Positions 2,615 to 57,215 of a stretch of 64,000 bases of DNA are shown piece by piece (position 1 is the first letter of the stretch; each line of letters starts with the position of its first letter). A program made the translations under genes and the position numbers. Source of the stretch: a virus (Duplodnaviria > Caudoviricetes); IMG/VR virus record IMGVR_UViG_2974716960_000001, positions 1 through 64,000 of that record; one strand, written 5' to 3'. Below the pieces are notes generated by a model. The model was not told where the DNA came from. It made no database searches and worked only from the letters and a program-made list of their open reading frames with translations.

Positions 2615-4270
2615 ATGGCTATTGAACTTCCCGAGGAAATCTCGGACGGTGACGTTCGGAAGTTCGTTGAGAATGAGTTGTGGCCGGAGTTTGTGCGTCG
2701 GCGCGACAAGTTGGACAAGATCGCTAACTGGGCGCGCGGCGAGCAGCCGGACTATTTGATCCAGAATGCTAACCGGGAGAAGCGGGCGCTACTTAAGCTC
2801 GCTAAGACTCCGTGGTTGGGGCTGGTGGTCACTCATTTCACCCAGGCATTGTTTGTGGACGGCTACCGGGCTGAGGGTTCTAAGGAGAACACTAAGGGGC
2901 CTTGGCAGACGTGGAATGCGAACAACATGCAGTCTCGTCAGATTGCGATTCACCGGGCGGCGCTGACCTATGGGTATGCGTATGCGCGTGTGCTGCCGGG
3001 TGAGGCGTGGGACGGTAAGAATCAGGCTGAGATTCGTGGTGTGTCTCCGCGTCGTCTGCTGGCTCTTTATGAGGATCAGATCAACGACGAGTACCCACGG
3101 TATGCGCTAGAGCTTGCCGCTAACGGTAAGTATGTGCGGCTGTATACGGACGAGTTCTATTACGAGCTTAAGATGCCGTCGCCGGGCAGTTTCCCTAACG
3201 AGCAGACGGTTAAGAAGGTTCGTCACGGCGTGGGTGTGTGTCCGTTTGTGCGGTACGTGAACATGATGGACCTGGACGGCTTCACTATGGGTGAGGTCGA
3301 GTACCTGGTGCCGGTGGCGTCGAAGATCGACAAGACGGATTACGACCGCCTGTTGGCGCAGCATTACAACTCTTGGAAGGTCAAGGTTGCTACTGGCATT
3401 GACGACCTGTCCGAGGACGCTACGCCGGAGGAGCAGGCCCGCGCGAAGTTGATCCTGGCTCAGGACGACATTCTGATGCACGGCAACCATGAGGCGAAGT
3501 TCTACACGCTGCCGGAGACGAGCCTTGATGGCTTTATCGCGGCGCACACGCAGGACGTTGAAATCCTCGCTAACAACGCTCAGGTGCCGGTGTGGATTCT
3601 TAATGGGCAGCTTGCCAATCTTTCGGCAGACGCGCTTACAGCGGCCACTAAGGGCACGATCCAGAAGCTTTATGAGCGTCAGGTGACGTTCGGGTCGGCG
3701 CATAACCAGTTGCTTCGGCTCGCGGCGCATGTCGAGGGCGATGAGTCGGGCGCGCGTGACTTCACGGCCAGTGTGTCGTGGCAGGACACGTCGGTGCGTT
3801 CGTTGGCTCAGGCTGTGGACGCTTATGGCAAGGCAGCGACGATGCTGGGTATGCCTAAGGAGTTCCTATGGGGTCTGATTCCGGGCATTACTAAGACGGA
3901 CGTTGAGACGATGCGCGAGCACTTCAACGACGACGACGAAATGACGCAGATGCTCTTGTGGTGGACGGCTAATGGTCCTGGCGGCGAGTTCGCAGCCGAG
4001 ATTGAGGTTGACACGCAGAAGCAGGTCATTGAGGCCCAGGGCGATGTGCAGAAGGCATTGCAGGATGCGCAGGCTAAGGCTCAGAAGGACTTGGCTAAGC
4101 AGAATGCGGAGGCTCAGCGGAAGCAGGCTGTGGAGGTCGCTAAGGCGACTCCGGCGCAGCCTGCCGGTGGGGCGACTCCGACTGCGCGCAAGACCAGCTC
4201 TACGTCCAAGCGGACGCCTAAGAAGTCCGGCGGGGTGAACGGTAACGATCCGTCGAGTAGGGCTGCATAA
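2615..4270 (+). CDS. Portal protein
   Basis: 551 aa directly after terL; SPP1 gp6-like features (WQTWNANNM, AALTYGYAY, NLSADAL). Confidence 0.92.
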   Translation: MAIELPEEISDGDVRKFVENELWPEFVRRRDKLDKIANWARGEQPDYLIQNANREKRALLKLAKTPWLGLVVTHFTQALFVDGYRAEGSKENTKGPWQTWNANNMQSRQIAIHRAALTYGYAYARVLPGEAWDGKNQAEIRGVSPRRLLALYEDQINDEYPRYALELAANGKYVRLYTDEFYYELKMPSPGSFPNEQTVKKVRHGVGVCPFVRYVNMMDLDGFTMGEVEYLVPVASKIDKTDYDRLLAQHYNSWKVKVATGIDDLSEDATPEEQARAKLILAQDDILMHGNHEAKFYTLPETSLDGFIAAHTQDVEILANNAQVPVWILNGQLANLSADALTAATKGTIQKLYERQVTFGSAHNQLLRLAAHVEGDESGARDFTASVSWQDTSVRSLAQAVDAYGKAATMLGMPKEFLWGLIPGITKTDVETMREHFNDDDEMTQMLLWWTANGPGGEFAAEIEVDTQKQVIEAQGDVQKALQDAQAKAQKDLAKQNAEAQRKQAVEVAKATPAQPAGGATPTARKTSSTSKRTPKKSGGVNGNDPSSRAA

Positions 4271-40694: not shown

Positions 40695-42119
40695 ATGACC
40701 ACCTTTTTGCAGAGCCTAAACGGCCAGCTAAACACGACCCGCACGGAGAACGGCGATAAGGCGCATAAGTCGTCGCTTGATCCGGTGGTCGATTACTTCG
40801 GCTTGGCGGGCGCTATGCGTGACCGCGCCGAGGCGAGCGCCGACCTGTTTGAGAAGGCGTACCGTGCTGACCCGCAGGCTGCGGTGCGGACCCTGTTCTA
40901 TCTGCGTGATGTGCGCGGGGGCCAGGGGGAGCGCGACGTATTCCGTGCCGGGCTTAAGCGCCTGTTCCATATGGACCCTTACACCGGTATGGCAGTTGTG
41001 GAGCACACGCCGTTCTATGGGCGCTGGGATGACTTGTTCATCTTCGGGTCTCAGGTTCCGGCGGGTATCTCGGCACTTATCCGTGAGCAGTGGGCCGAGG
41101 ACGTTGACGCTTACGAGCGCGGCGAGAAGGTCTCACTGTTGGCTAAGTGGCTGCCTTCCGATAAGGCTGCGAATAAGGAGCTGGCTATCGCTGTCCGGAC
41201 GGTGCTGGGCCTGACGCAGCGCGAGTACCGGCAGACGCTTAGCGCGCTGCGGGAGCGGATTGGCCTGCTTGAGCACGCTATGTCGGACGGCGTTTACGCC
41301 AACGTCGACTACAGCAAGCTCCCGGCGCAGGCGCACCGTAAGCACGTTAAGGCGTTCCGGCGCAACGACGGTGAGCGGTACCAGGCGTTCCTAGACGCGG
41401 TTGACCGTGGCGAGGCCAAGGTGAACACGTCGACCCTGTATCCGTACGAGCTGTACGACTTGTGCCGGTCGGACCCGAACGCCGCTGACACGCTGTGGAA
41501 CAACCTGCCGGACTACACGCGGCCCGGCCAGGACGCGATCGTTCTAGCGGACGTTTCAGGCTCCATGTGGGGTCGGCCTATGTCTGTGTCTGTGTCGCTG
41601 GCTTTGTACTTCGCAGAGCGCAACACAGGGCCGTATAAGGGCTACTTCATGACGTTCGCCTCTACGCCTGCGCTGGTGCAGGTGACCGGTAAGACGTTGC
41701 AGCAGAAGCTCCACGCTATCGAGCACTCGACTGGCTGGTGTGGGTCGACGGACTTGGAGGCCGCGTTCAAGGCGATCTTGCGCGCCGGTAAGCAGTCGGG
41801 CACCGTCCCGGCCACGCTCTACGTCGTGTCGGACATGCAGTTCAATCAGGCGCTTAACCACGCTGACCTGAGCGTGTTTGAGTCGGCCCGGCTGGACTTC
41901 CAGCGGGCGGGCCTTGAGCTGCCGCATGTCGTGTTCTGGAACGTCAACGCGCGCCACGATCAGCTTCCGGCCACGATCCTTGACGGGAACGTGACGCTGG
42001 TGTCTGGCTTGGCGGCTACGACTTTCGGCATGGCCGTGGAGGGTAAGACCCCTCGTGAGCTGGTGAATGACGTGATCAATAGCGAGCGGTACTCGCAGAT
42101 CAACGTTTCCGGTTCCTAA
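40695..42119 (+). CDS. Ro60-like RNA-binding protein (DUF2828 / helical ring + vWA)
   Basis: TENGD, LFYLRDVRGGQGER, YGRWDDL, AKWLPS in the helical region; MIDAS DVSGS...STD...SDMQF in the vWA domain. Confidence 0.88.
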   Translation: MTTFLQSLNGQLNTTRTENGDKAHKSSLDPVVDYFGLAGAMRDRAEASADLFEKAYRADPQAAVRTLFYLRDVRGGQGERDVFRAGLKRLFHMDPYTGMAVVEHTPFYGRWDDLFIFGSQVPAGISALIREQWAEDVDAYERGEKVSLLAKWLPSDKAANKELAIAVRTVLGLTQREYRQTLSALRERIGLLEHAMSDGVYANVDYSKLPAQAHRKHVKAFRRNDGERYQAFLDAVDRGEAKVNTSTLYPYELYDLCRSDPNAADTLWNNLPDYTRPGQDAIVLADVSGSMWGRPMSVSVSLALYFAERNTGPYKGYFMTFASTPALVQVTGKTLQQKLHAIEHSTGWCGSTDLEAAFKAILRAGKQSGTVPATLYVVSDMQFNQALNHADLSVFESARLDFQRAGLELPHVVFWNVNARHDQLPATILDGNVTLVSGLAATTFGMAVEGKTPRELVNDVINSERYSQINVSGS

Positions 42120-42160
42120 TGTTTCCGGATACCGGGTGCCGCCCGGTATCGTAAAACTTG

Positions 42161-42212
42161 TGGACGCTAACAGCAATTAAAACTGTTTGCGGATAACAAT
42201 AAAATGCGTCCA
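42161..42212 (+). ncRNA. Candidate Y-like RNA unit 1
   Basis: TGGACGC/GCGTCCA stem, ACAGCAAT (42170-42177), TGTT-TGCGGAT-AACA stem-loop. Confidence 0.65.
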
Positions 42213-42223
42213 GTTTAAACGTG

Positions 42224-42343
42224 TGGACCCCCACAGCAATTACTACATTCCATGATAAGGACGAGGTTCGGGTTCGAGTCCCGGCGGTGGCCCTGTGTCG
42301 CTGTAGCTTAATGGCAGAGCGCGTATGTAAACCAAGGGGTCCA
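42224..42343 (+). ncRNA. Candidate Y-like RNA unit 2 with circularly permuted tRNA domain (YrlA-like)
   Basis: TGGACCCC/GGGGTCCA stem, ACAGCAAT, T-arm TCGGG-TTCGAGT-CCCGG, loop-closed 7-bp acceptor, D-arm GCTT-AATGGCA-GAGC. Confidence 0.8.
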
Positions 42344-42355
42344 GTTAAGCGGCTG

Positions 42356-42410
42356 TGGTCACTAACAGCAATCAAAAAACTTTCACTGTTAATGAAATAT
42401 AATGTGACCA
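42356..42410 (+). ncRNA. Candidate Y-like RNA unit 3
   Basis: TGGTCAC/GTGACCA stem, ACAGCAAT (42365-42372), TTTCA-CTGTTAA-TGAAA stem-loop. Confidence 0.7.
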
Positions 42411-42425
42411 GTCTTGCCGCGCATT

Positions 42426-42460
42426 AACCCGCTACCCGGTCGACGGGGGCGGGTTTTTTG
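42426..42460 (+). terminator. Intrinsic terminator closing the Ro-like/ncRNA locus
   Basis: AACCCGC..CCCG/CGGG..GCGGGTT stem followed by TTTTG. Confidence 0.85.
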
Positions 42461-42604
42461 TTGCCTTGAGGAGGACTTACATGCCTGGACCAATGTCCGC
42501 GCCCAACGGAAACGCGCTGATCACCTACAGCGCCGAGGCGCGCAAGAAAGCCGGTCGGACCGGCAAGACGGAGCTTGTGAAAGCCCGTAAGGGGGAGAAG
42601 AAAA

Positions 42605-49409: not shown

Positions 49410-50267
49410 ATGGCCGTTCATCTGAAGGTCTATAACGAGAAGCTAGGCACCATTAACGGTGCTGCGGAGCCGTTCACCTTCCCCGGCGGGGAACTGCACC
49501 TTAGGAGCATTCTTCCGCCGCTGATTGATGGGACGTGGATTGCGGACGTGCGGGGCGCTGCCACCGACGACCTGGTGACAGCGCTGCTGCTGGCCGACCA
49601 CGCAGCGCAACAGGGCCAGCCGTTCGTGTTGTTCCTGCCGTACCTTCCGGCTGCTCGCGCGGACCGGGGGACGCCGTTCGGCCTGCGGGTGTACGCGGAC
49701 ATGATCAACAACTGCGCGTATGCGGAGCACGTCATTGTCATTGACCCGCATTCGCCGGTCGCTAAGCGGCTGGTTAGGAACATCTGCCCGCTTGACCCGC
49801 TGCCGCTGCTGGACAGGGCGCTAGAGAGCCAAGGGCATTGGCGGTACGACGCAATCATTGCGCCAGATAAGGGCGCAGTGGACCGGGCCGAGAAGGTCGC
49901 TAAGCATTATGGCCTAGACCTGGTTGTCTGCGACAAGGAACGCGACTTTGATACGGGCCGGATTACCAAGTACAAGGTTCCGGCTCTGTCCACTAAGGGC
50001 AAGTACCTGGTGATAGACGATATCTGCGACGGCGGCGGCACATTCGCACTGCTTGCTAGCGAGTCACTTATCGCTAAGACGAACTTGGACCTTTGGGTCA
50101 CGCACGGCATTTTCTCCGGAGCTGCTACCAACCTCCGGAATTACTACGGGCGCATTATGACGACCGACTCTCATCCTGGTCATAACCGGGTGGGTGTGGC
50201 TACGTCGATTGTGCCGACTTACACATACATGCACCAAGCGATGGTTGGCCTTAAGGGGATAGGGTGA
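49410..50267 (+). CDS. PRPP-synthetase-like enzyme (candidate ADPR-PP synthetase, Adps)
   Basis: FTFPGGE, PYLPAARADR, DPHS, PDKGA, DDICDGGGT motifs. Confidence 0.88.
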   Translation: MAVHLKVYNEKLGTINGAAEPFTFPGGELHLRSILPPLIDGTWIADVRGAATDDLVTALLLADHAAQQGQPFVLFLPYLPAARADRGTPFGLRVYADMINNCAYAEHVIVIDPHSPVAKRLVRNICPLDPLPLLDRALESQGHWRYDAIIAPDKGAVDRAEKVAKHYGLDLVVCDKERDFDTGRITKYKVPALSTKGKYLVIDDICDGGGTFALLASESLIAKTNLDLWVTHGIFSGAATNLRNYYGRIMTTDSHPGHNRVGVATSIVPTYTYMHQAMVGLKGIG

Positions 50268-51748
50268 GCACGAAATTTGCGCCGGTCGCGGCGCTATTCG
50301 AGACGGACGCATACAAGCTGGGTCACGTTGACCAGTACGCGCTTAGCGGCGACGTGACGCGGGTGTATTCCAACTACACCAACCGCAAGTCTCGGCTGCC
50401 GGGCGTCGATAAGGTCGTGCATTTCGGGTTGCAGGCTTACATTGCTAAGCACCTGATGGAGGCTTTTGAGCCGTTCTTCGCGGCGAAGGAGAATGAGGTT
50501 GCCGCGCTTTACGAGGAGCGGGTTGCTCAGATTCTCGGGCCGGATGCAGCGCACTCGATTGGCTCGGACCATATTCGCCAGTTGCATGGGCTTGGGTTCC
50601 TGCCGCTGCGGTTCAGCGCGGTGCCTGAGGGGACGCTAGTGCCTATCGGGGTGCCGTCGTTCACGGTGGAGAACACCCACGAGTCGTTCTACTGGCTGAC
50701 CAACTACATCGAGACCGGCCTTAGCGCCGGGGTGTGGCAGGCCAGCACGTCCGCGACCATCGCTAAGCAGTACCGGCGGGTGCTTGAGAGCGCAGCTCTG
50801 CGGACCGGTGCGGACCTGGCGGGCGTCGACTGGCAGTGCCATGACTTCTCATATCGGGGTATGTCGTCGCATGAGAGCGCGGCAGCGTCGGGCGCGGCTC
50901 ACCTGTTGAGCTTTACCGGTACGGACTCGCTGGTGTCGCTGGATTGGATCGACCGTTACTACGGCGGCGAGTACATCGCTGGGTCGGTGCCCGCTACCGA
51001 GCATTCGGTGATGTGTACCGGCATTGAGACGGTCGGGGAGCTTGAGACGTTTAAGCGCCTGCTGGACCTGTACCCGTCCGGCATCGTTAGCGTTGTCAGT
51101 GACACGTTCGATCTTTGGCGCGTGCTAACCACTTATTTGCCGACGCTGCATAAGCAGATCGTGGGCCGGGACGGGAAGCTGGTCATTCGGCCTGACTCCG
51201 GCGATCCAGAGAAGATCATTTGTGGCGATCCGGACGCGCCAGTTTCCTCTAACGAGTGGATGGGCGTGCTGGGGCTGCTCTACGAGCACTTCGGCGGCAA
51301 GAAAAACGCTGCCGGGTTCATTGAGCTTGATCCGCACGTCGGTGTGATTTACGGCGACTCAATCACGGTTGAACGCGCTACGAGCATCACCGCGCGTATG
51401 GAGAAGCTGGGCTACGCGTCGTCCAACGTGGTGTTTGGCGTGGGCAGCTTTACGTACCAGTACAACACCCGCGACACGTTCGGGTCCGCGATGAAGGCGA
51501 CGTGGGCTGAGGTCGACGGCAAGGGTTACAACCTGCTCAAGAATCCAGTGACCGACGACGGGACTAAGAAGTCTGCGACGGGTCGGCTGGCGGTGTTGGA
51601 GAACATCTGGGGCGATCTGGCGCTCAAGCAGAACGCCACGATTGAGGACGAGAAGGCGAGCTTGCTCCGTCCCGTTTGGGAGAACGGAAAGTTTCTAGGC
51701 CGGCAGTCGTTTGCGCAGGTCAGGGCGGTTCTGGCCGCTCAGCGGTAG
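50264..51748 (+). CDS. Nampt-like enzyme (candidate nicotinamide ADPR-transferase, Namat)
   Basis: TDAYK, HDFSYRG, PATEHSVM, VSDT, RPDSGDP, YGDSI, GVGS motifs. Confidence 0.92.
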   Translation: MSTKFAPVAALFETDAYKLGHVDQYALSGDVTRVYSNYTNRKSRLPGVDKVVHFGLQAYIAKHLMEAFEPFFAAKENEVAALYEERVAQILGPDAAHSIGSDHIRQLHGLGFLPLRFSAVPEGTLVPIGVPSFTVENTHESFYWLTNYIETGLSAGVWQASTSATIAKQYRRVLESAALRTGADLAGVDWQCHDFSYRGMSSHESAAASGAAHLLSFTGTDSLVSLDWIDRYYGGEYIAGSVPATEHSVMCTGIETVGELETFKRLLDLYPSGIVSVVSDTFDLWRVLTTYLPTLHKQIVGRDGKLVIRPDSGDPEKIICGDPDAPVSSNEWMGVLGLLYEHFGGKKNAAGFIELDPHVGVIYGDSITVERATSITARMEKLGYASSNVVFGVGSFTYQYNTRDTFGSAMKATWAEVDGKGYNLLKNPVTDDGTKKSATGRLAVLENIWGDLALKQNATIEDEKASLLRPVWENGKFLGRQSFAQVRAVLAAQR

Positions 51749-51834: not shown

Positions 51835-52761
51835 ATGACGACCTTATGGGCGATGCGGGGTTATCCCGGCTCTGGTAAATCCACCAGGGCGCGTGAAATC
51901 GCTGACCAGAACGGCGCGGTGGTTGTGTGCCGCGACGATCTGCGCAACATGCTTCATGGCACCTATTTCTCGGGCGTCAAAGAGCGTGAGGATGAGGTCA
52001 CGGTTGCGGAGCGGGCGCAGGTTAGCGCGTTCCTTAAGGCCGGTATCTCTGTGGTGGTAGACGCTACTCACTTGGAGCCGTCTTATCTGCGTAAGTGGGC
52101 GAAGATGGCGAGCATGTACGGCGCTGACTTTAAGCGCGTTGACGTTGACACTGCGGCCCACCTTTGCATCGTGCGTGACTTTAAGCGCGGCGAGGCCGGA
52201 GACCGGACTGTCGGCGCGGAAGTGATTAACCGGATGGCTAAGCGTCACCCGATTAAGAACTGGCCGAACATTCAGGCTCCCCCGACGTTCGACCCTAAGC
52301 CGGTCGAATGGATTGAGGGTCTGCCGGAAGCCATCATCGTTGATATCGACGGCACGGTGGCTCACATGACGGGCCGGTCACCGTACGACTACACGCAGGT
52401 TCACACCGACGTGGTTGACGAGCAGATTCGGTGGCTGGTCGGCCTGGTGGACTACTACGGCGGTCCGAACGGTGTCCACGTGCTGATCGTGTCGGGCCGG
52501 GACGACTCGTGCCGGGTGGCGACTCAGGAATGGTTGTGGAAGAACGCCATTCCTTACGACGAGCTGCACATGCGGCCTACTGGCGCTAAGGATGAGCACG
52601 GTAACAAGCTGCCGGATTACCTGGTCAAGTACGACCTGTTCGACCAGAACATTCGCGGCAAGTACAACGTGCGCTTTGTGTTGGACGACCGGGACCAGGT
52701 TGTGAATCTGTGGCGGTCGCTGGGCCTTAAGTGCCTGCAAGTGCAGCCGGGGGACTTCTAA
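51835..52761 (+). CDS. pnk: Polynucleotide kinase/3'-phosphatase
   Basis: Walker A GYPGSGKST; HAD DIDGT; FVLDDR (T4 PseT-like). Confidence 0.93.
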   Translation: MTTLWAMRGYPGSGKSTRAREIADQNGAVVVCRDDLRNMLHGTYFSGVKEREDEVTVAERAQVSAFLKAGISVVVDATHLEPSYLRKWAKMASMYGADFKRVDVDTAAHLCIVRDFKRGEAGDRTVGAEVINRMAKRHPIKNWPNIQAPPTFDPKPVEWIEGLPEAIIVDIDGTVAHMTGRSPYDYTQVHTDVVDEQIRWLVGLVDYYGGPNGVHVLIVSGRDDSCRVATQEWLWKNAIPYDELHMRPTGAKDEHGNKLPDYLVKYDLFDQNIRGKYNVRFVLDDRDQVVNLWRSLGLKCLQVQPGDF

Positions 52762-55934: not shown

Positions 55935-57215
55935 GTGAGCTTTGACGCGCCGGAGAACGCTAACTACGCGGCGACAATCGTCAAGCTGCCGCAGGGGCTT
56001 CTCCTAGAAGGTCTGGACAACCTGGTGGGCGTGCCAATGTTCGGTTACCAGGCGCTCACCCAGAAAGAGGGCTACGAGCTGGGCGCGCTGCGTGTGCTGT
56101 TCATGGCTGAGACGCAGCTTGACCCCGACTACGCGCGGGAAAACAACCTGTTCCGTGAGGCCACGCTGAACCGGGACGCCAGCGAGACCGGCTACCTAGA
56201 GCCGAATGCCCGCGTGAAGGCGCTCCGGCTGCGTAAGCACCAGTCAGACGCGCTGTTGATGCCGCTGTCGTCGCTGGCCTACACCGGCTACGACGTGTCG
56301 GCGCTCAAGCCGGGCGATACGTTCGACAAGCTGAACGGCCACACGATCTGCCGTAAGTACGTGGCGAAGGGTAAGAAGCAGGCCACGCAGGGTCAGCCCA
56401 AGGTTCGTAAGCAGGTTGACGAGCGGCTGTTCCCGAAGCACTTGGACACGGAGCATCTGTTCCGGAACCTGCACTACTTCCGTGACGCTAAGCCTGTCGT
56501 GGTGACGCAGAAGTTGCACGGCACGAGCTGGCGCGGCGGCAATATCCCGGTTAACCGGACTAAGGGTCGGTTTGAGCGGTTCCTGAACCGTCTGGGCATT
56601 GCCACTCCGGACACTGAGTACAAGCATGTGTTCGGCTCTCGGAATGTGGTTAAGGGCCGGTCGGATAATAACCACTTCTACGAGTCTGATTTGTGGGCGA
56701 AGTTCGGCGAGAAGCTTGAGGGCAAGATTCCGGAGAACTTCATCATTTACGGCGAGCTTGTCGGGTGGGTTAGCGAGGATGAGCCGATCCAGCGGGGTTA
56801 CACGTACGACCTGCCGCCGGGGCAGTGCGAGCTTTACGTGTACCGGGTGGCGACGGTGAACCCTAAGGGTGTTATCGCGGACCTGTCATGGGAAGGCGTT
56901 AAGGACTTCTGCCGGACGTTGGAACTCAAGACGGTGCCGGAGTTCGGTTTCGACGTTGAGCATGTGCCGAACTTTGAGGCCGAGGAGCGATTCGTCCTGG
57001 CTTACCAGGAGACGTACATGGACTTGCGTTACGCGGACGCTTACCCCAATGGCGGGTATCTGCCGCTGAGTGACCGCAAGACGGTTGACGAGGGTATCTG
57101 CGTCCGTATCGAGGGCCAGGTGCCGCGCGTGCTCAAAGCCAAGTCGCCGAAGTTCCTTGAGCATGAGACTAAGCAGTTGGATAAGGGAGAGGTTGACCTT
57201 GAGTCGGTGGCGTAA
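55935..57215 (+). CDS. RNA ligase (Rnl2-like with N-terminal OB-like domain)
   Basis: Motif I KLHGTS; IIYGEL; EGICVR; LKAKS. Confidence 0.9.
   Translation: MSFDAPENANYAATIVKLPQGLLLEGLDNLVGVPMFGYQALTQKEGYELGALRVLFMAETQLDPDYARENNLFREATLNRDASETGYLEPNARVKALRLRKHQSDALLMPLSSLAYTGYDVSALKPGDTFDKLNGHTICRKYVAKGKKQATQGQPKVRKQVDERLFPKHLDTEHLFRNLHYFRDAKPVVVTQKLHGTSWRGGNIPVNRTKGRFERFLNRLGIATPDTEYKHVFGSRNVVKGRSDNNHFYESDLWAKFGEKLEGKIPENFIIYGELVGWVSEDEPIQRGYTYDLPPGQCELYVYRVATVNPKGVIADLSWEGVKDFCRTLELKTVPEFGFDVEHVPNFEAEERFVLAYQETYMDLRYADAYPNGGYLPLSDRKTVDEGICVRIEGQVPRVLKAKSPKFLEHETKQLDKGEVDLESVA

What the first reader, a model, noticed from the sequence alone, without database searches (positions are those of the whole stretch)
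42181..42397. Each small-RNA unit displays a different anticodon-like loop: a possible decoy panel against anticodon nucleases
Seen: all three units place a 7-nt loop at a similar distance after ACAGCAAT. Unit 3 has TTTCA-CTGTTAA-TGAAA (42381-42397), a textbook tRNA-Asn(GUU) loop. Unit 2 has ATGATAA (Ile GAU). Unit 1 has TGTT-TGCGGAT-AACA (central CGG, non-canonical position 33). Established: host defences such as PrrC, RloC, VapC and PARIS AriB cut specific anticodon loops. Inference: the Ro-like ring presents swappable anticodon stem-loops as decoys or repair templates, a modular and potentially programmable anti-defence array.
Basis: inference. Interest (0 to 1): 0.75.

Follow-up and report, generated by a model that had tools for sequence, protein, structure and literature searches.

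The report
Anticodon-loop baits on phage Ro-like RNAs
Three small RNAs encoded behind a Ro60-shaped protein gene of this mycobacteriophage share one handle, two of them display look-alikes of tRNA anticodon loops, and across hundreds of phages such RNAs show the same bias, so they probably bait proteins that read or cut anticodon loops, which is untested.

Summary
The three hairpins exist exactly where stated. U3 (42381-42397) carries CUGUUAA, identical to the tRNA-Asn loop of a Mycolicibacterium genome. U2's AUGAUAA sits in the true anticodon-arm position of a circularly permuted, sealed tRNA shape, which ARAGORN calls tRNA-Ile(GAU) once re-permuted. U1's UGCGGAU is not anticodon-like (G at position 33), yet the same loop recurs in an E. 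coli phage.

In 103 related loci, 33 of 133 distinct units have a hairpin whose 7-nt loop equals a real tRNA anticodon loop, against 1.0 in shuffles. An independent set of 80 loci gave 43 of 207 against 1.5.

The units share a handle: a covarying 7-8 bp stem, unpaired ACAGCAA and a 3' G. They follow a DUF2828/vWA gene whose predicted fold is Ro60. A Felix O1-type homologue (Bas63 gp130) is reported to counter the Ppl defence. This phage also encodes Pnkp and an RNA ligase.

Display of anticodon-loop mimics is well supported. The decoy function is plausible and untested, and "repair template" has no support.

Caveats: the bare hairpins are thermodynamically weak, only a quarter to a half of units are anticodon-like, and expression is not shown.

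This scan noted the same RNA-protein system before on other DNA (at least 59 genomes by its index). I found no paper or Rfam family describing the RNAs.

The parts
40695..42119 (+). Gene for a 474-aa Ro60-fold protein (DUF2828 + DUF7788/vWA with MIDAS DxSxS at D286/S288/S290), annotated 'Ro-like RNA binding protein' in relatives
   Evidence: Pfam PF11443 and PF25043, no TROVE hit. PHROG 850. AF2 model pLDDT 89.9. The top 11 Foldseek PDB hits are all Ro60/TROVE, E 1.5e-7, TM 0.54-0.63 for ten of them and 0.32 for 2nvo. Invariant D286, S288, S290.
42161..42213 (+). Unit 1: handle (stem 42161-42167 / 42206-42212, ACAGCAAT 42170-42177, 3' G 42213) plus cargo hairpin TGTT-TGCGGAT-AACA (42184-42198). 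The loop is not anticodon-like (G33).
   Evidence: closing stem: 4 of 7 pairs with compensatory changes, none broken in 16 sequences. The same loop occurs in E. coli phage JH2.
42224..42344 (+). Unit 2: handle (stem 42224-42231 / 42336-42343, ACAGCAAT 42233-42240, 3' G 42344) plus a circularly permuted, sealed tRNA shape. Parts: anticodon arm 42247-42263 (loop ATGATAA 42252-42258), variable loop 42264-42267, T arm 42268-42284, acceptor 3' strand 42285-42291, closing loop 42292-42296, acceptor 5' strand 42297-42303, D arm 42306-42320.
   Evidence: ARAGORN finds nothing in native order and tRNA-Ile(gat) after re-permutation. Weak Rfam YrlA hit of 21.7 bits against a cut-off of 69. Orthologues are annotated tRNA-Asn or tRNA-Thr in GenBank.
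42356..42411 (+). Unit 3: handle (stem 42356-42362 / 42404-42410, ACAGCAAT 42365-42372, 3' G 42411) plus a bare anticodon-stem-loop mimic TTTCA-CTGTTAA-TGAAA (42381-42397), Asn(GUU) type.
   Evidence: The loop is identical to real tRNA-Asn loops. Weak Rfam Dicty_Class_I_RNA hit of 21.9 bits against a cut-off of 41.5.
42426..42459 (+). Intrinsic-terminator-like G+C-rich hairpin followed by a U run, closing the gene-plus-RNA block.
   Evidence: RNAfold -24.7 kcal/mol, z -2.3. The simple consensus scan did not list it.

Best explanation
The three units are partner RNAs (Y-RNA-like) of the Ro60-fold DUF2828/vWA protein encoded just upstream.

Each unit has a constant handle and a variable cargo. 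The handle is a 7-8 bp terminal stem, an unpaired ACAGCAA and a 3' G. It most likely docks on the protein (inferred). The cargo imitates tRNA parts:
- U2 is a whole tRNA body with a sealed acceptor end and an Ile(GAU)-type anticodon arm.
- U3 is a bare Asn(GUU)-type anticodon stem-loop.
- U1 is a conserved 7-nt-loop hairpin of unknown specificity.

The block is probably transcribed with the gene, ended by the terminator at 42426-42459, and cut into single units (inferred).

The particle then presents anticodon-loop look-alikes that cannot be charged or decode. The most likely use is as baits or competitive inhibitors for host proteins that recognise anticodon loops, first of all the tRNA-cutting nucleases of anti-phage defence. 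The protein would stabilise and present the RNA (inferred).

Shown: the sequence anatomy, the fold prediction, the covariation of the handle, and the family-wide anticodon-loop bias. Not shown: expression, protein-RNA binding, and any target.
For: - Fold: the Ro60 fold is confirmed.
- Linkage: handle units lie on the gene's strand directly beside the gene, 152 against 2 on the opposite strand in set 1 and 207 against 5 in set 2. They were found in 72 of 80 replicate loci.
- Handle: the stem covaries, while ACAGCAA is invariant across Cluster L.
- Cargo bias: 33/133 and 43/207 units carry exact real anticodon loops on stems of at least 4 bp, against about 1-2 expected.
- Loop profile: 43 distinct loops give C/U32 79%, U33 63%, R37 95%, A38 70%, with position 35 the least constrained.
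- In T-arm units the hairpin sits exactly where an anticodon arm belongs, and U2 re-permutes to tRNA-Ile.
- Only the loop is kept. Mimic stems are 34% GC against 59% in real tRNAs, and are unrelated to same-anticodon neighbour tRNAs in 12 of 15 cases. CUUUUAA sits on 6 different stems.
- Orthologous U2 arms differ at the middle anticodon base: CUGUUAA, CUGGUAA, CUGAUAA, AUGAUAA, AUGCUAA.
- Loops equal those of a Mycolicibacterium genome (the genus of the usual laboratory host): Asn, Ser-GCU and Thr-GGU, the last including its A32.
- Context: Pnkp and an RNA ligase in the same genome. Bas63 gp130, a homologue, counters Ppl. Lys-UUU, Thr-UGU and Asn-GUU are known targets of AriB (PMC12409363).
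Against: - No expression, binding or cleavage data exist for these RNAs.
- The bare hairpins are weak. In the window, MFE folds prefer other pairings, including the U3 loop with the handle.
- Only about 20-30% of units have exact anticodon loops, perhaps 40-50% including near matches. Many cargoes are something else.
- U1 is not anticodon-like.
- Several Cluster L lineages (LeBron, Lolly9, Whirlwind, Douge) have a U2 without an anticodon arm, so the arm is dispensable there.
- The one experimentally tested homologue acts against Ppl, which is thought to act on DNA ends. The Felix O1-type units are not canonical anticodon mimics.
- A stoichiometric decoy would have to compete with very abundant tRNAs.
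Confidence: 0.45

Rival explanations
1. This is a tether rather than a decoy. As in Ro60/Y RNA/PNPase particles, the tRNA-like cargo recruits a tRNA-handling enzyme to the Ro-like ring. Candidates are a repair enzyme such as Pnkp, the RNA ligase or RtcB, a modification enzyme, an aminoacyl-tRNA synthetase, or an exonuclease. The particle would then repair, check or degrade damaged host or phage tRNAs.
For: - Y RNAs tether Ro60 to PNPase, and the phiLo phage Ro60 forms such complexes (PMC12135203).
- Ro/TROVE is viewed as an RNA-repair platform in jumbo phages (PMC7824862).
- The gene sits inside or beside tRNA arrays.
- RtcB lies near it in the Listeria phage.
- Pnkp and an RNA ligase are in this window.
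Against: - A fixed partner enzyme would not need rapidly changing anticodon identities.
- Repair enzymes such as Pnkp and Rnl do not read intact anticodon loops (established knowledge).
- No direct data exist.
Confidence: 0.25
2. The anticodon-like loops are evolutionary left-overs. The units arose from tRNA genes in phage tRNA arrays, and only the handle, or the T/D elbow, is functional. The loops would have no specific role.
For: - Units lie among tRNA genes.
- Some units enclose whole tRNAs in normal order (L025:4076).
- Many units have no anticodon-like loop.
- Some lineages lost the arm.
- The hairpins are thermodynamically weak.
Against: - Loops are kept exactly while stems are replaced and AU-rich.
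- Conservation follows the anticodon-loop pattern, with 32, 33, 37 and 38 kept and 34-36 free.
- Bare hairpin units keep canonical loops in very distant phages.
- The excess over background is more than 20-fold in two samples.
Confidence: 0.12
3. The cargo loops work inside the RNA. They pair with the ACAGCAA handle, as the U3 loop CUGUUA can with UAACAG, to open or close the protein-binding site. The resemblance to anticodon loops would be secondary.
For: - The MFE of U3 pairs loop and handle, -11.6 against -8.4 kcal/mol. U1 pairs UUGC with GCAA.
- There is a family-wide excess of complementarity of at least 4 nt, 34 units against 19.2 expected.
Against: - The pairing is not kept in orthologues: Lolly9 has CUGCUA with an unchanged handle, and Bromden has none.
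- The commonest loops (CUUUUAA, CUUGAAA, CUCAUAA, AUGAUAA) cannot pair with CAGCAA.
- The excess is small and the sample is not phylogenetically independent.
Confidence: 0.08

Closest known systems
Ro60/Rsr with YrlA-type Y RNAs (Rfam RF02553; Chen et al. 2014, PMC4201824)
   Same: A ring-shaped HEAT-repeat plus vWA protein is encoded next to small RNAs whose 5' and 3' ends form a stem. At least one RNA carries a tRNA-like domain with T arm, D arm and a sealed acceptor-like stem. Such systems are also present in phages.
   Different: - The protein is DUF2828, not Pfam TROVE, and the similarity is seen only at fold level.
- The handle signature is ACAGCAA, not the Ro-binding bulged helix or the GNCGAA motif.
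- The YrlA model scores 21.7 bits against a cut-off of 69.
- U2 keeps a separate anticodon arm, whereas in YrlA that stem leads to the Ro-binding helix.
- Bare anticodon-hairpin units and arrays of 2-9 units are not described for YrlA.
Bas63 (Escherichia phage JohannRWettstein) gp130, counter of the Ppl defence (PhageMaP preprint, PMC11482910)
   Same: It is a homologous DUF2828 protein. bas63_0130 is 95% identical in DNA to the JH2 locus, whose protein is about 32% identical to the window's. It lies at the head of a tRNA array, and the authors note its Ro60-like structure and guess that some neighbouring 'tRNAs' are Y RNAs.
   Different: The host and phage type differ. The RNAs were not identified in that work. 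Its units are not canonical anticodon mimics, although one shares the UGCGGAU loop with window U1. Ppl is thought to act on DNA ends.
Nuclease-resistant phage tRNAs (T5 tRNA-Lys/Thr/Asn against PARIS AriB, PMC12409363; anticodon-loop variants, van den Berg et al. 2023 as cited in PMC11482910)
   Same: These are phage-encoded RNAs with anticodon loops of the isoacceptors that defence nucleases target (Lys UUU, Thr UGU, Asn GUU), used to survive tRNA-directed immunity.
   Different: Those are working tRNAs that replace cut host tRNAs. The units here cannot be charged, having a sealed acceptor or no acceptor at all. They could only act as baits or inhibitors.
Dictyostelium Class I RNAs (Rfam RF01414; Kjellin et al. 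2021, PMC7919456)
   Same: A short terminal stem is followed directly on the 5' side by an unpaired motif containing ACAGCAA. The interior is variable and the 3' end reads ..(C/A)G. Total length is 42-65 nt, like the bare-hairpin units.
   Different: Scores are below the family cut-off (21.9-29.6 bits against 41.5). The published work reports the class as unique to dictyostelids, with an RRM protein partner. I could not test whether dictyostelids have a DUF2828 protein.

Membership tests
Ro60/TROVE protein | Pfam TROVE domain (sequence level) | tested here: not met
   Pfam gives DUF2828 + DUF7788 + weak VWA_2 and no TROVE. A profile against PDB sequences hits Ro60 only at E 0.07-0.09, in the vWA part.
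Ro60/TROVE protein | Ring of HEAT-like repeats plus vWA domain with MIDAS motif (fold level) | tested here: met
   AF2 model pLDDT 89.9. The top 11 Foldseek hits are Ro60/TROVE structures over the full length, E down to 1.5e-7. DxSxS is invariant.
YrlA Y RNA (RF02553) | Score at or above the Rfam gathering cut-off, with the two-tier stem leading into the T/acceptor/D junction | tested here: not met
   21.7 bits against 69, and the second stem is marked non-pairing in the alignment.
tRNA | Cloverleaf in normal order with an open acceptor end | tested here: not met
   ARAGORN finds no tRNA at 42150-42420. It calls tRNA-Ile(gat) only after re-permutation. The acceptor strands are joined by a 5-nt loop (42292-42296).
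Anticodon stem-loop (5-bp stem, 7-nt loop, Y32 U33 NNN R37) | All loop and stem rules, unit 3 | tested here: met
   TTTCA-CTGTTAA-TGAAA. The loop is identical to real tRNA-Asn loops.
Anticodon stem-loop (5-bp stem, 7-nt loop, Y32 U33 NNN R37) | All loop and stem rules, unit 2 | tested here: inconclusive
   U33, A37 and A38 are present and the position in the tRNA shape is correct. But it has A32 and only 3 of 5 stem pairs. A32 does occur in the Mycolicibacterium tRNA-Thr(GGU).
Anticodon stem-loop (5-bp stem, 7-nt loop, Y32 U33 NNN R37) | All loop and stem rules, unit 1 | tested here: not met
   The loop is UGCGGAU with G33 on a 4-bp stem. It matches none of 270 + 139 phage tRNA loops or 40 host-genus tRNA loops.
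Dictyostelium Class I RNA (RF01414) | Score at or above the Rfam gathering cut-off | tested here: not met
   21.9 bits (U3) and 28-29.6 bits (Aeromonas phage units) against 41.5. The motif and architecture are shared.
Anti-defence decoy of anticodon nucleases | Binding to, or cleavage by, an anticodon nuclease, and rescue of phage growth | not testable with these tools
   Only indirect context is available.

The most novel reading that the evidence does not exclude
The stem-ACAGCAA RNAs are a large, undescribed class of Y-like RNAs for Ro60-fold DUF2828 proteins. Phages would use them as a modular panel of non-chargeable anticodon-loop baits, each aimed at a different tRNA-cutting defence enzyme. 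Variants lacking U33 would serve as non-cleavable inhibitors. The same handle in Dictyostelium Class I RNAs would mean that this kind of particle also exists in eukaryotes.
Probability: 0.25. Interest if true: 0.9.

Novelty: new variant of a known kind. Interest (0 to 1): 0.72.

Why it matters
tRNA cleavage has recently emerged as a major route of bacterial immunity (PrrC, RloC, PARIS, OLD, Cas13, retrons). The known phage answers are repair enzymes and replacement tRNAs. A protein-borne panel of anticodon-loop mimics would be a third answer.

It would also give a function to a very large protein family: more than 7,600 clusters at 90% identity and about 700 phage records. It would give that family RNA partners as well.

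It would explain why some Cluster L phage genomes carry odd 'tRNA-Asn' or 'tRNA-Thr' annotations at this site. It makes a clear, cheap experiment possible in M. smegmatis and E. coli. The shared handle with Dictyostelium Class I RNAs offers a lead on an RNA class whose function has been open for two decades.

Tried and rejected
1. Rfam scan of the region with relaxed thresholds found no family above its cut-off, only weak YrlA and Dicty_Class_I hits.
2. Filing U2 as YrlA or as a tRNA was rejected on the membership tests.
3. Handle-to-loop pairing as the real structure is favoured by MFE but not conserved in orthologues.
4. Set 1 showed an excess of U36 loops (readers of ANN codons, the t6A group): 24/43 against 85/270 real tRNAs. 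It did not replicate in set 2, where Tyr, Arg-UCU, Phe, Lys and Asp lead. I dropped it as a general rule.
5. Recent copying from neighbouring tRNAs was rejected. Stems are unrelated in 12 of 15 cases and much more AU-rich.
6. I looked for eukaryotic (Dictyostelium) DUF2828 proteins. The protein search was saturated by phage and metagenome hits, and the atlas showed only viral and bacterial clusters, so there is no answer.
7. The 'longer' protein search gave only one RecQ fusion.
8. The consensus terminator scan missed the terminator that RNAfold supports.
9. My unit scanner misses units whose 3' G can wobble-pair (for example Listeria phage L016), so set 1 counts are conservative. This was corrected for set 2.

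Full report
**What is there.** The window comes from a 77-kb virus record. Its closest relatives are Cluster L mycobacteriophages (Lclasvirinae: Faith1, Loadrie, Crossroads), about 84% identical over 42100-42480. ORF 40695-42119 encodes a 474-aa protein that GenBank relatives call 'Ro-like RNA binding protein'. Pfam sees DUF2828 + DUF7788 and a weak vWA, not TROVE. An AlphaFold model built on 29 homologues has pLDDT 89.9. Its 11 best PDB matches are all Ro60/TROVE structures over the full length, with E down to 1.5e-7 and TM 0.54-0.63 for ten of them and 0.32 for 2nvo. The MIDAS residues D286, S288 and S290 are invariant. So 'Ro-like' holds at fold level only.

**The three units.** Three units follow the stop codon:
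- U1 is at 42161-42213.
- U2 is at 42224-42344.
- U3 is at 42356-42411.

A G+C-rich hairpin with a U run follows at 42426-42459. Each unit has a 7-8 bp terminal stem, two or three bases, ACAGCAAT, a variable interior, the 3' strand of the stem, and a G. ACAGCAAT occurs nowhere else in the 64 kb. In 16 orthologous or paralogous bare-hairpin units from Cluster L and relatives, 4 of the 7 stem pairs show compensatory changes and none is broken. ACAGCAA is invariant in these sequences.

**Check of the observation.**
- U3 is TTTCA-CTGTTAA-TGAAA (42381-42397). It obeys every anticodon-arm rule. Its loop is identical to tRNA-Asn loops of phage tRNAs and of Mycolicibacterium sphagni.
- U2's ATGATAA (42252-42258) has U33, A37 and A38, but A32 and only three stem pairs. 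It lies 4 nt before a T arm (42268-42284). Then come a 7-bp acceptor-like helix closed by a 5-nt loop (42285-42303), UA, and a D arm (42306-42320). When the two halves are re-joined in normal order, ARAGORN calls tRNA-Ile(gat). In native order it finds nothing. U2 is therefore a circularly permuted, sealed tRNA shape whose break lies between positions 26 and 27, and its hairpin is a true anticodon-arm equivalent. Some GenBank records annotate the orthologue as tRNA-Asn (Wilder, Gardann) or tRNA-Thr (Zakai).
- U1's TGCGGAT (42188-42194) has G at position 33 and matches no real anticodon loop. 'Each unit' is thus overstated, as two of three qualify.

**Caveat on folding.** Folding of the single sequences does not favour the U1 and U3 hairpins. 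Their energies are -9.7 and -8.4 kcal/mol, against MFE values of -12.5 and -11.6. In U3 the MFE pairs the loop CUGUUA with UAACAG of the handle. That pairing is not kept in orthologues.

The protein has full-length homologues (29-39% identity) in about 700 phage records from very different hosts. In all eight phage loci sampled, the non-coding DNA beside the gene, often a tRNA array, holds units of the same design.

I then scanned 103 loci: 23 from annotated phages and this window, and 80 from IMG/VR. The scan found 152 units on the gene's strand against 2 on the other strand. They cluster just before and just after the gene.

Among 133 distinct interiors:
- 7-nt loops make up 82 of 192 predicted hairpins, against 8.9 of 117 in shuffles.
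- 33 interiors carry a hairpin of at least 4 bp whose loop is identical to the anticodon loop of one of 270 real tRNAs from the same loci. Shuffles give 1.0 +/- 1.0 (maximum 4 in 200), and same-length windows from the same loci give 1.6.

An unbiased profile of 43 distinct 7-nt loops, with T- and D-loops removed, reads C/U32 79%, U33 63%, purine-37 95% and A38 70%. Position 35 is the least constrained.

In units that carry a T arm, the 17 nt before the variable loop usually form a 5-7-5 arm. The loops seen there include CUGUUAA, CUGGUAA, AUGAUAA, CUGAAAA, CUUUUAA, CUUCCAA and CUUGUAA.

A second, independent sample of 80 loci from bacterial genomes and MAGs gave 207 units against 5 on the other strand. 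Of these, 43 of 207 had exact matches, using the loop list of the first sample. Shuffles gave 1.5 and genomic windows 2.4.

**What is selected.** Only the loop is kept.
- Mimic stems are 34% GC against 59% for real anticodon stems.
- They are unrelated to a same-anticodon tRNA nearby in 12 of 15 cases.
- CUUUUAA sits on six different stems.

Within the mycobacterial lineage, the orthologous U2 arm reads CUGUUAA (Faith1), CUGGUAA (Zakai, Loadrie), CUGAUAA (M. sphagni prophage), AUGAUAA (window, Bromden) and AUGCUAA (Mycolicibacterium sp. prophage). These changes centre on the middle anticodon base. The interior of U3 is replaced wholesale between the window and Faith1, while the handle stays the same. 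Several loops equal those of M. sphagni, a species of the same genus as the usual laboratory host: Asn, Ser-GCU and Thr-GGU, the last including its unusual A32.

**Limits.** Only about a quarter of units have exact anticodon loops, perhaps up to a half with near matches. Others carry unrelated hairpins. LeBron, Lolly9, Whirlwind and Douge have U2 units without an anticodon arm. Several loops keep the anticodon plus A37 A38 but lack U33. Nothing shows that the RNAs are made, bound or cut.

**Function.** The simplest reading is a Ro/Y-RNA-like particle whose RNAs display tRNA and anticodon-loop mimics that can neither be charged nor decode.

For the bait-for-nucleases idea:
- The identities displayed include Lys-UUU, Thr-UGU and Asn-GUU, the known targets of PARIS AriB (PMC12409363).
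- The window also encodes a Pnkp (51835-52761) and an RNA ligase (55935-57215), the classical pair that mends cut tRNAs.
- Bas63 gp130, which I verified to be the DUF2828 homologue at the head of that phage's tRNA array, is reported to counter the Ppl defence system (PMC11482910).

Against it:
- Ppl is currently thought to attack DNA ends (PMC13648713).
- The Felix O1-type units are not canonical mimics.
- A decoy must compete with abundant tRNAs.

I rate 'anticodon-loop and tRNA mimics displayed on partner RNAs of a Ro-fold protein' at about 0.8. I rate the nuclease-bait function at about 0.4, tethering of a tRNA-handling enzyme at 0.25, relics at 0.12 and intramolecular pairing at 0.08. 'Repair template' has no support.

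**Known or new.** Ro60 with tRNA-like YrlA RNAs is known, including in mycobacteriophages that have true TROVE proteins (PMC4201824). A phage Ro60 with two Y-like RNAs has been solved (PMC12135203). The units here fail the YrlA model and carry a different handle. No paper in the library links DUF2828 with RNAs. The PhageMaP authors only guess at Y RNAs. Other searches found nothing.

The handle resembles Dictyostelium Class I RNAs, which are reported as unique to dictyostelids (PMC7919456). Scores stay below the Rfam cut-off, and I could not test for a dictyostelid DUF2828 protein.

The scan's own index shows that the same system was noted earlier on other DNA, in at least 59 genomes, including the bare anticodon hairpins. 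I consulted those notes after forming my reading, and they are not independent evidence.

Noticed in passing
window 51835-52761 and 55935-57215: The window encodes a T4-type polynucleotide kinase-phosphatase (AAA_33 + HAD_PNKP) and an RNA ligase (PF09414). This is the classical tRNA healing-and-sealing pair. A PRPP-synthetase-like/NAMPT-like pair lies at 49410-51748.
   Followed up: partly
L001:1623-1693, L002:1623-1693 (GenBank KX580962, KX580961): Orthologues of unit 2 are annotated tRNA-Asn (Wilder, Gardann) or tRNA-Thr (Zakai) in some Cluster L genomes and left unannotated in most. They are permuted tRNA mimics, not decoding tRNAs. The two calls differ by one base (GTT against GGT).
   Followed up: yes
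window 42188-42194; L015 about 3926-3932; L063 about 2228: The non-anticodon loop UGCGGAU of unit 1 recurs on a different stem in E. coli phage JH2 (Felix O1 type). AGCGGAU occurs in an uncultured phage. The ligand is unknown.
   Followed up: partly
L016:470-1021 (Listeria phage LMSP-25): A ROOL-like RNA (88.5 bits, E 2e-16, just under the cut-off of 99.1) lies upstream of the DUF2828 gene and its units, with an RtcB ligase gene 1.3 kb downstream.
   Followed up: no
L029:2031-2282: A tmRNA-like element (cyano_tmRNA 116 bits; permuted tmRNA 81 bits) lies directly before two handle units and the DUF2828 gene in an uncultured phage.
   Followed up: no
L025:4076-4180: A complete tRNA in normal order (Rfam tRNA 67.5 bits; ARAGORN tRNA-Gln) is enclosed by a stem-CAGCAA handle. 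The cargo can therefore be a whole, unpermuted tRNA.
   Followed up: partly
protein P0001: A metagenomic 1148-aa protein fuses DUF2828/DUF7788 to a RecQ-family helicase (DEAD, Helicase_C, RQC, HRDC).
   Followed up: no
window 42355-42411; L022:1173-1226 and 1631-1693: The handle (terminal stem, ACAGCAA, 3' ..G) gives weak hits to Rfam Dicty_Class_I_RNA (21.9-29.6 bits against a cut-off of 41.5). That class is published as unique to dictyostelid amoebae.
   Followed up: partly
L104:4536-4800 (Mycolicibacterium sphagni), L105:5576-5830 (Mycolicibacterium sp. S2-37): Cluster L-like prophages in Mycolicibacterium genomes carry the same gene (75% and 52% identity) and three-unit array. Their unit 2 loops are CUGAUAA and AUGCUAA.
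   Followed up: partly
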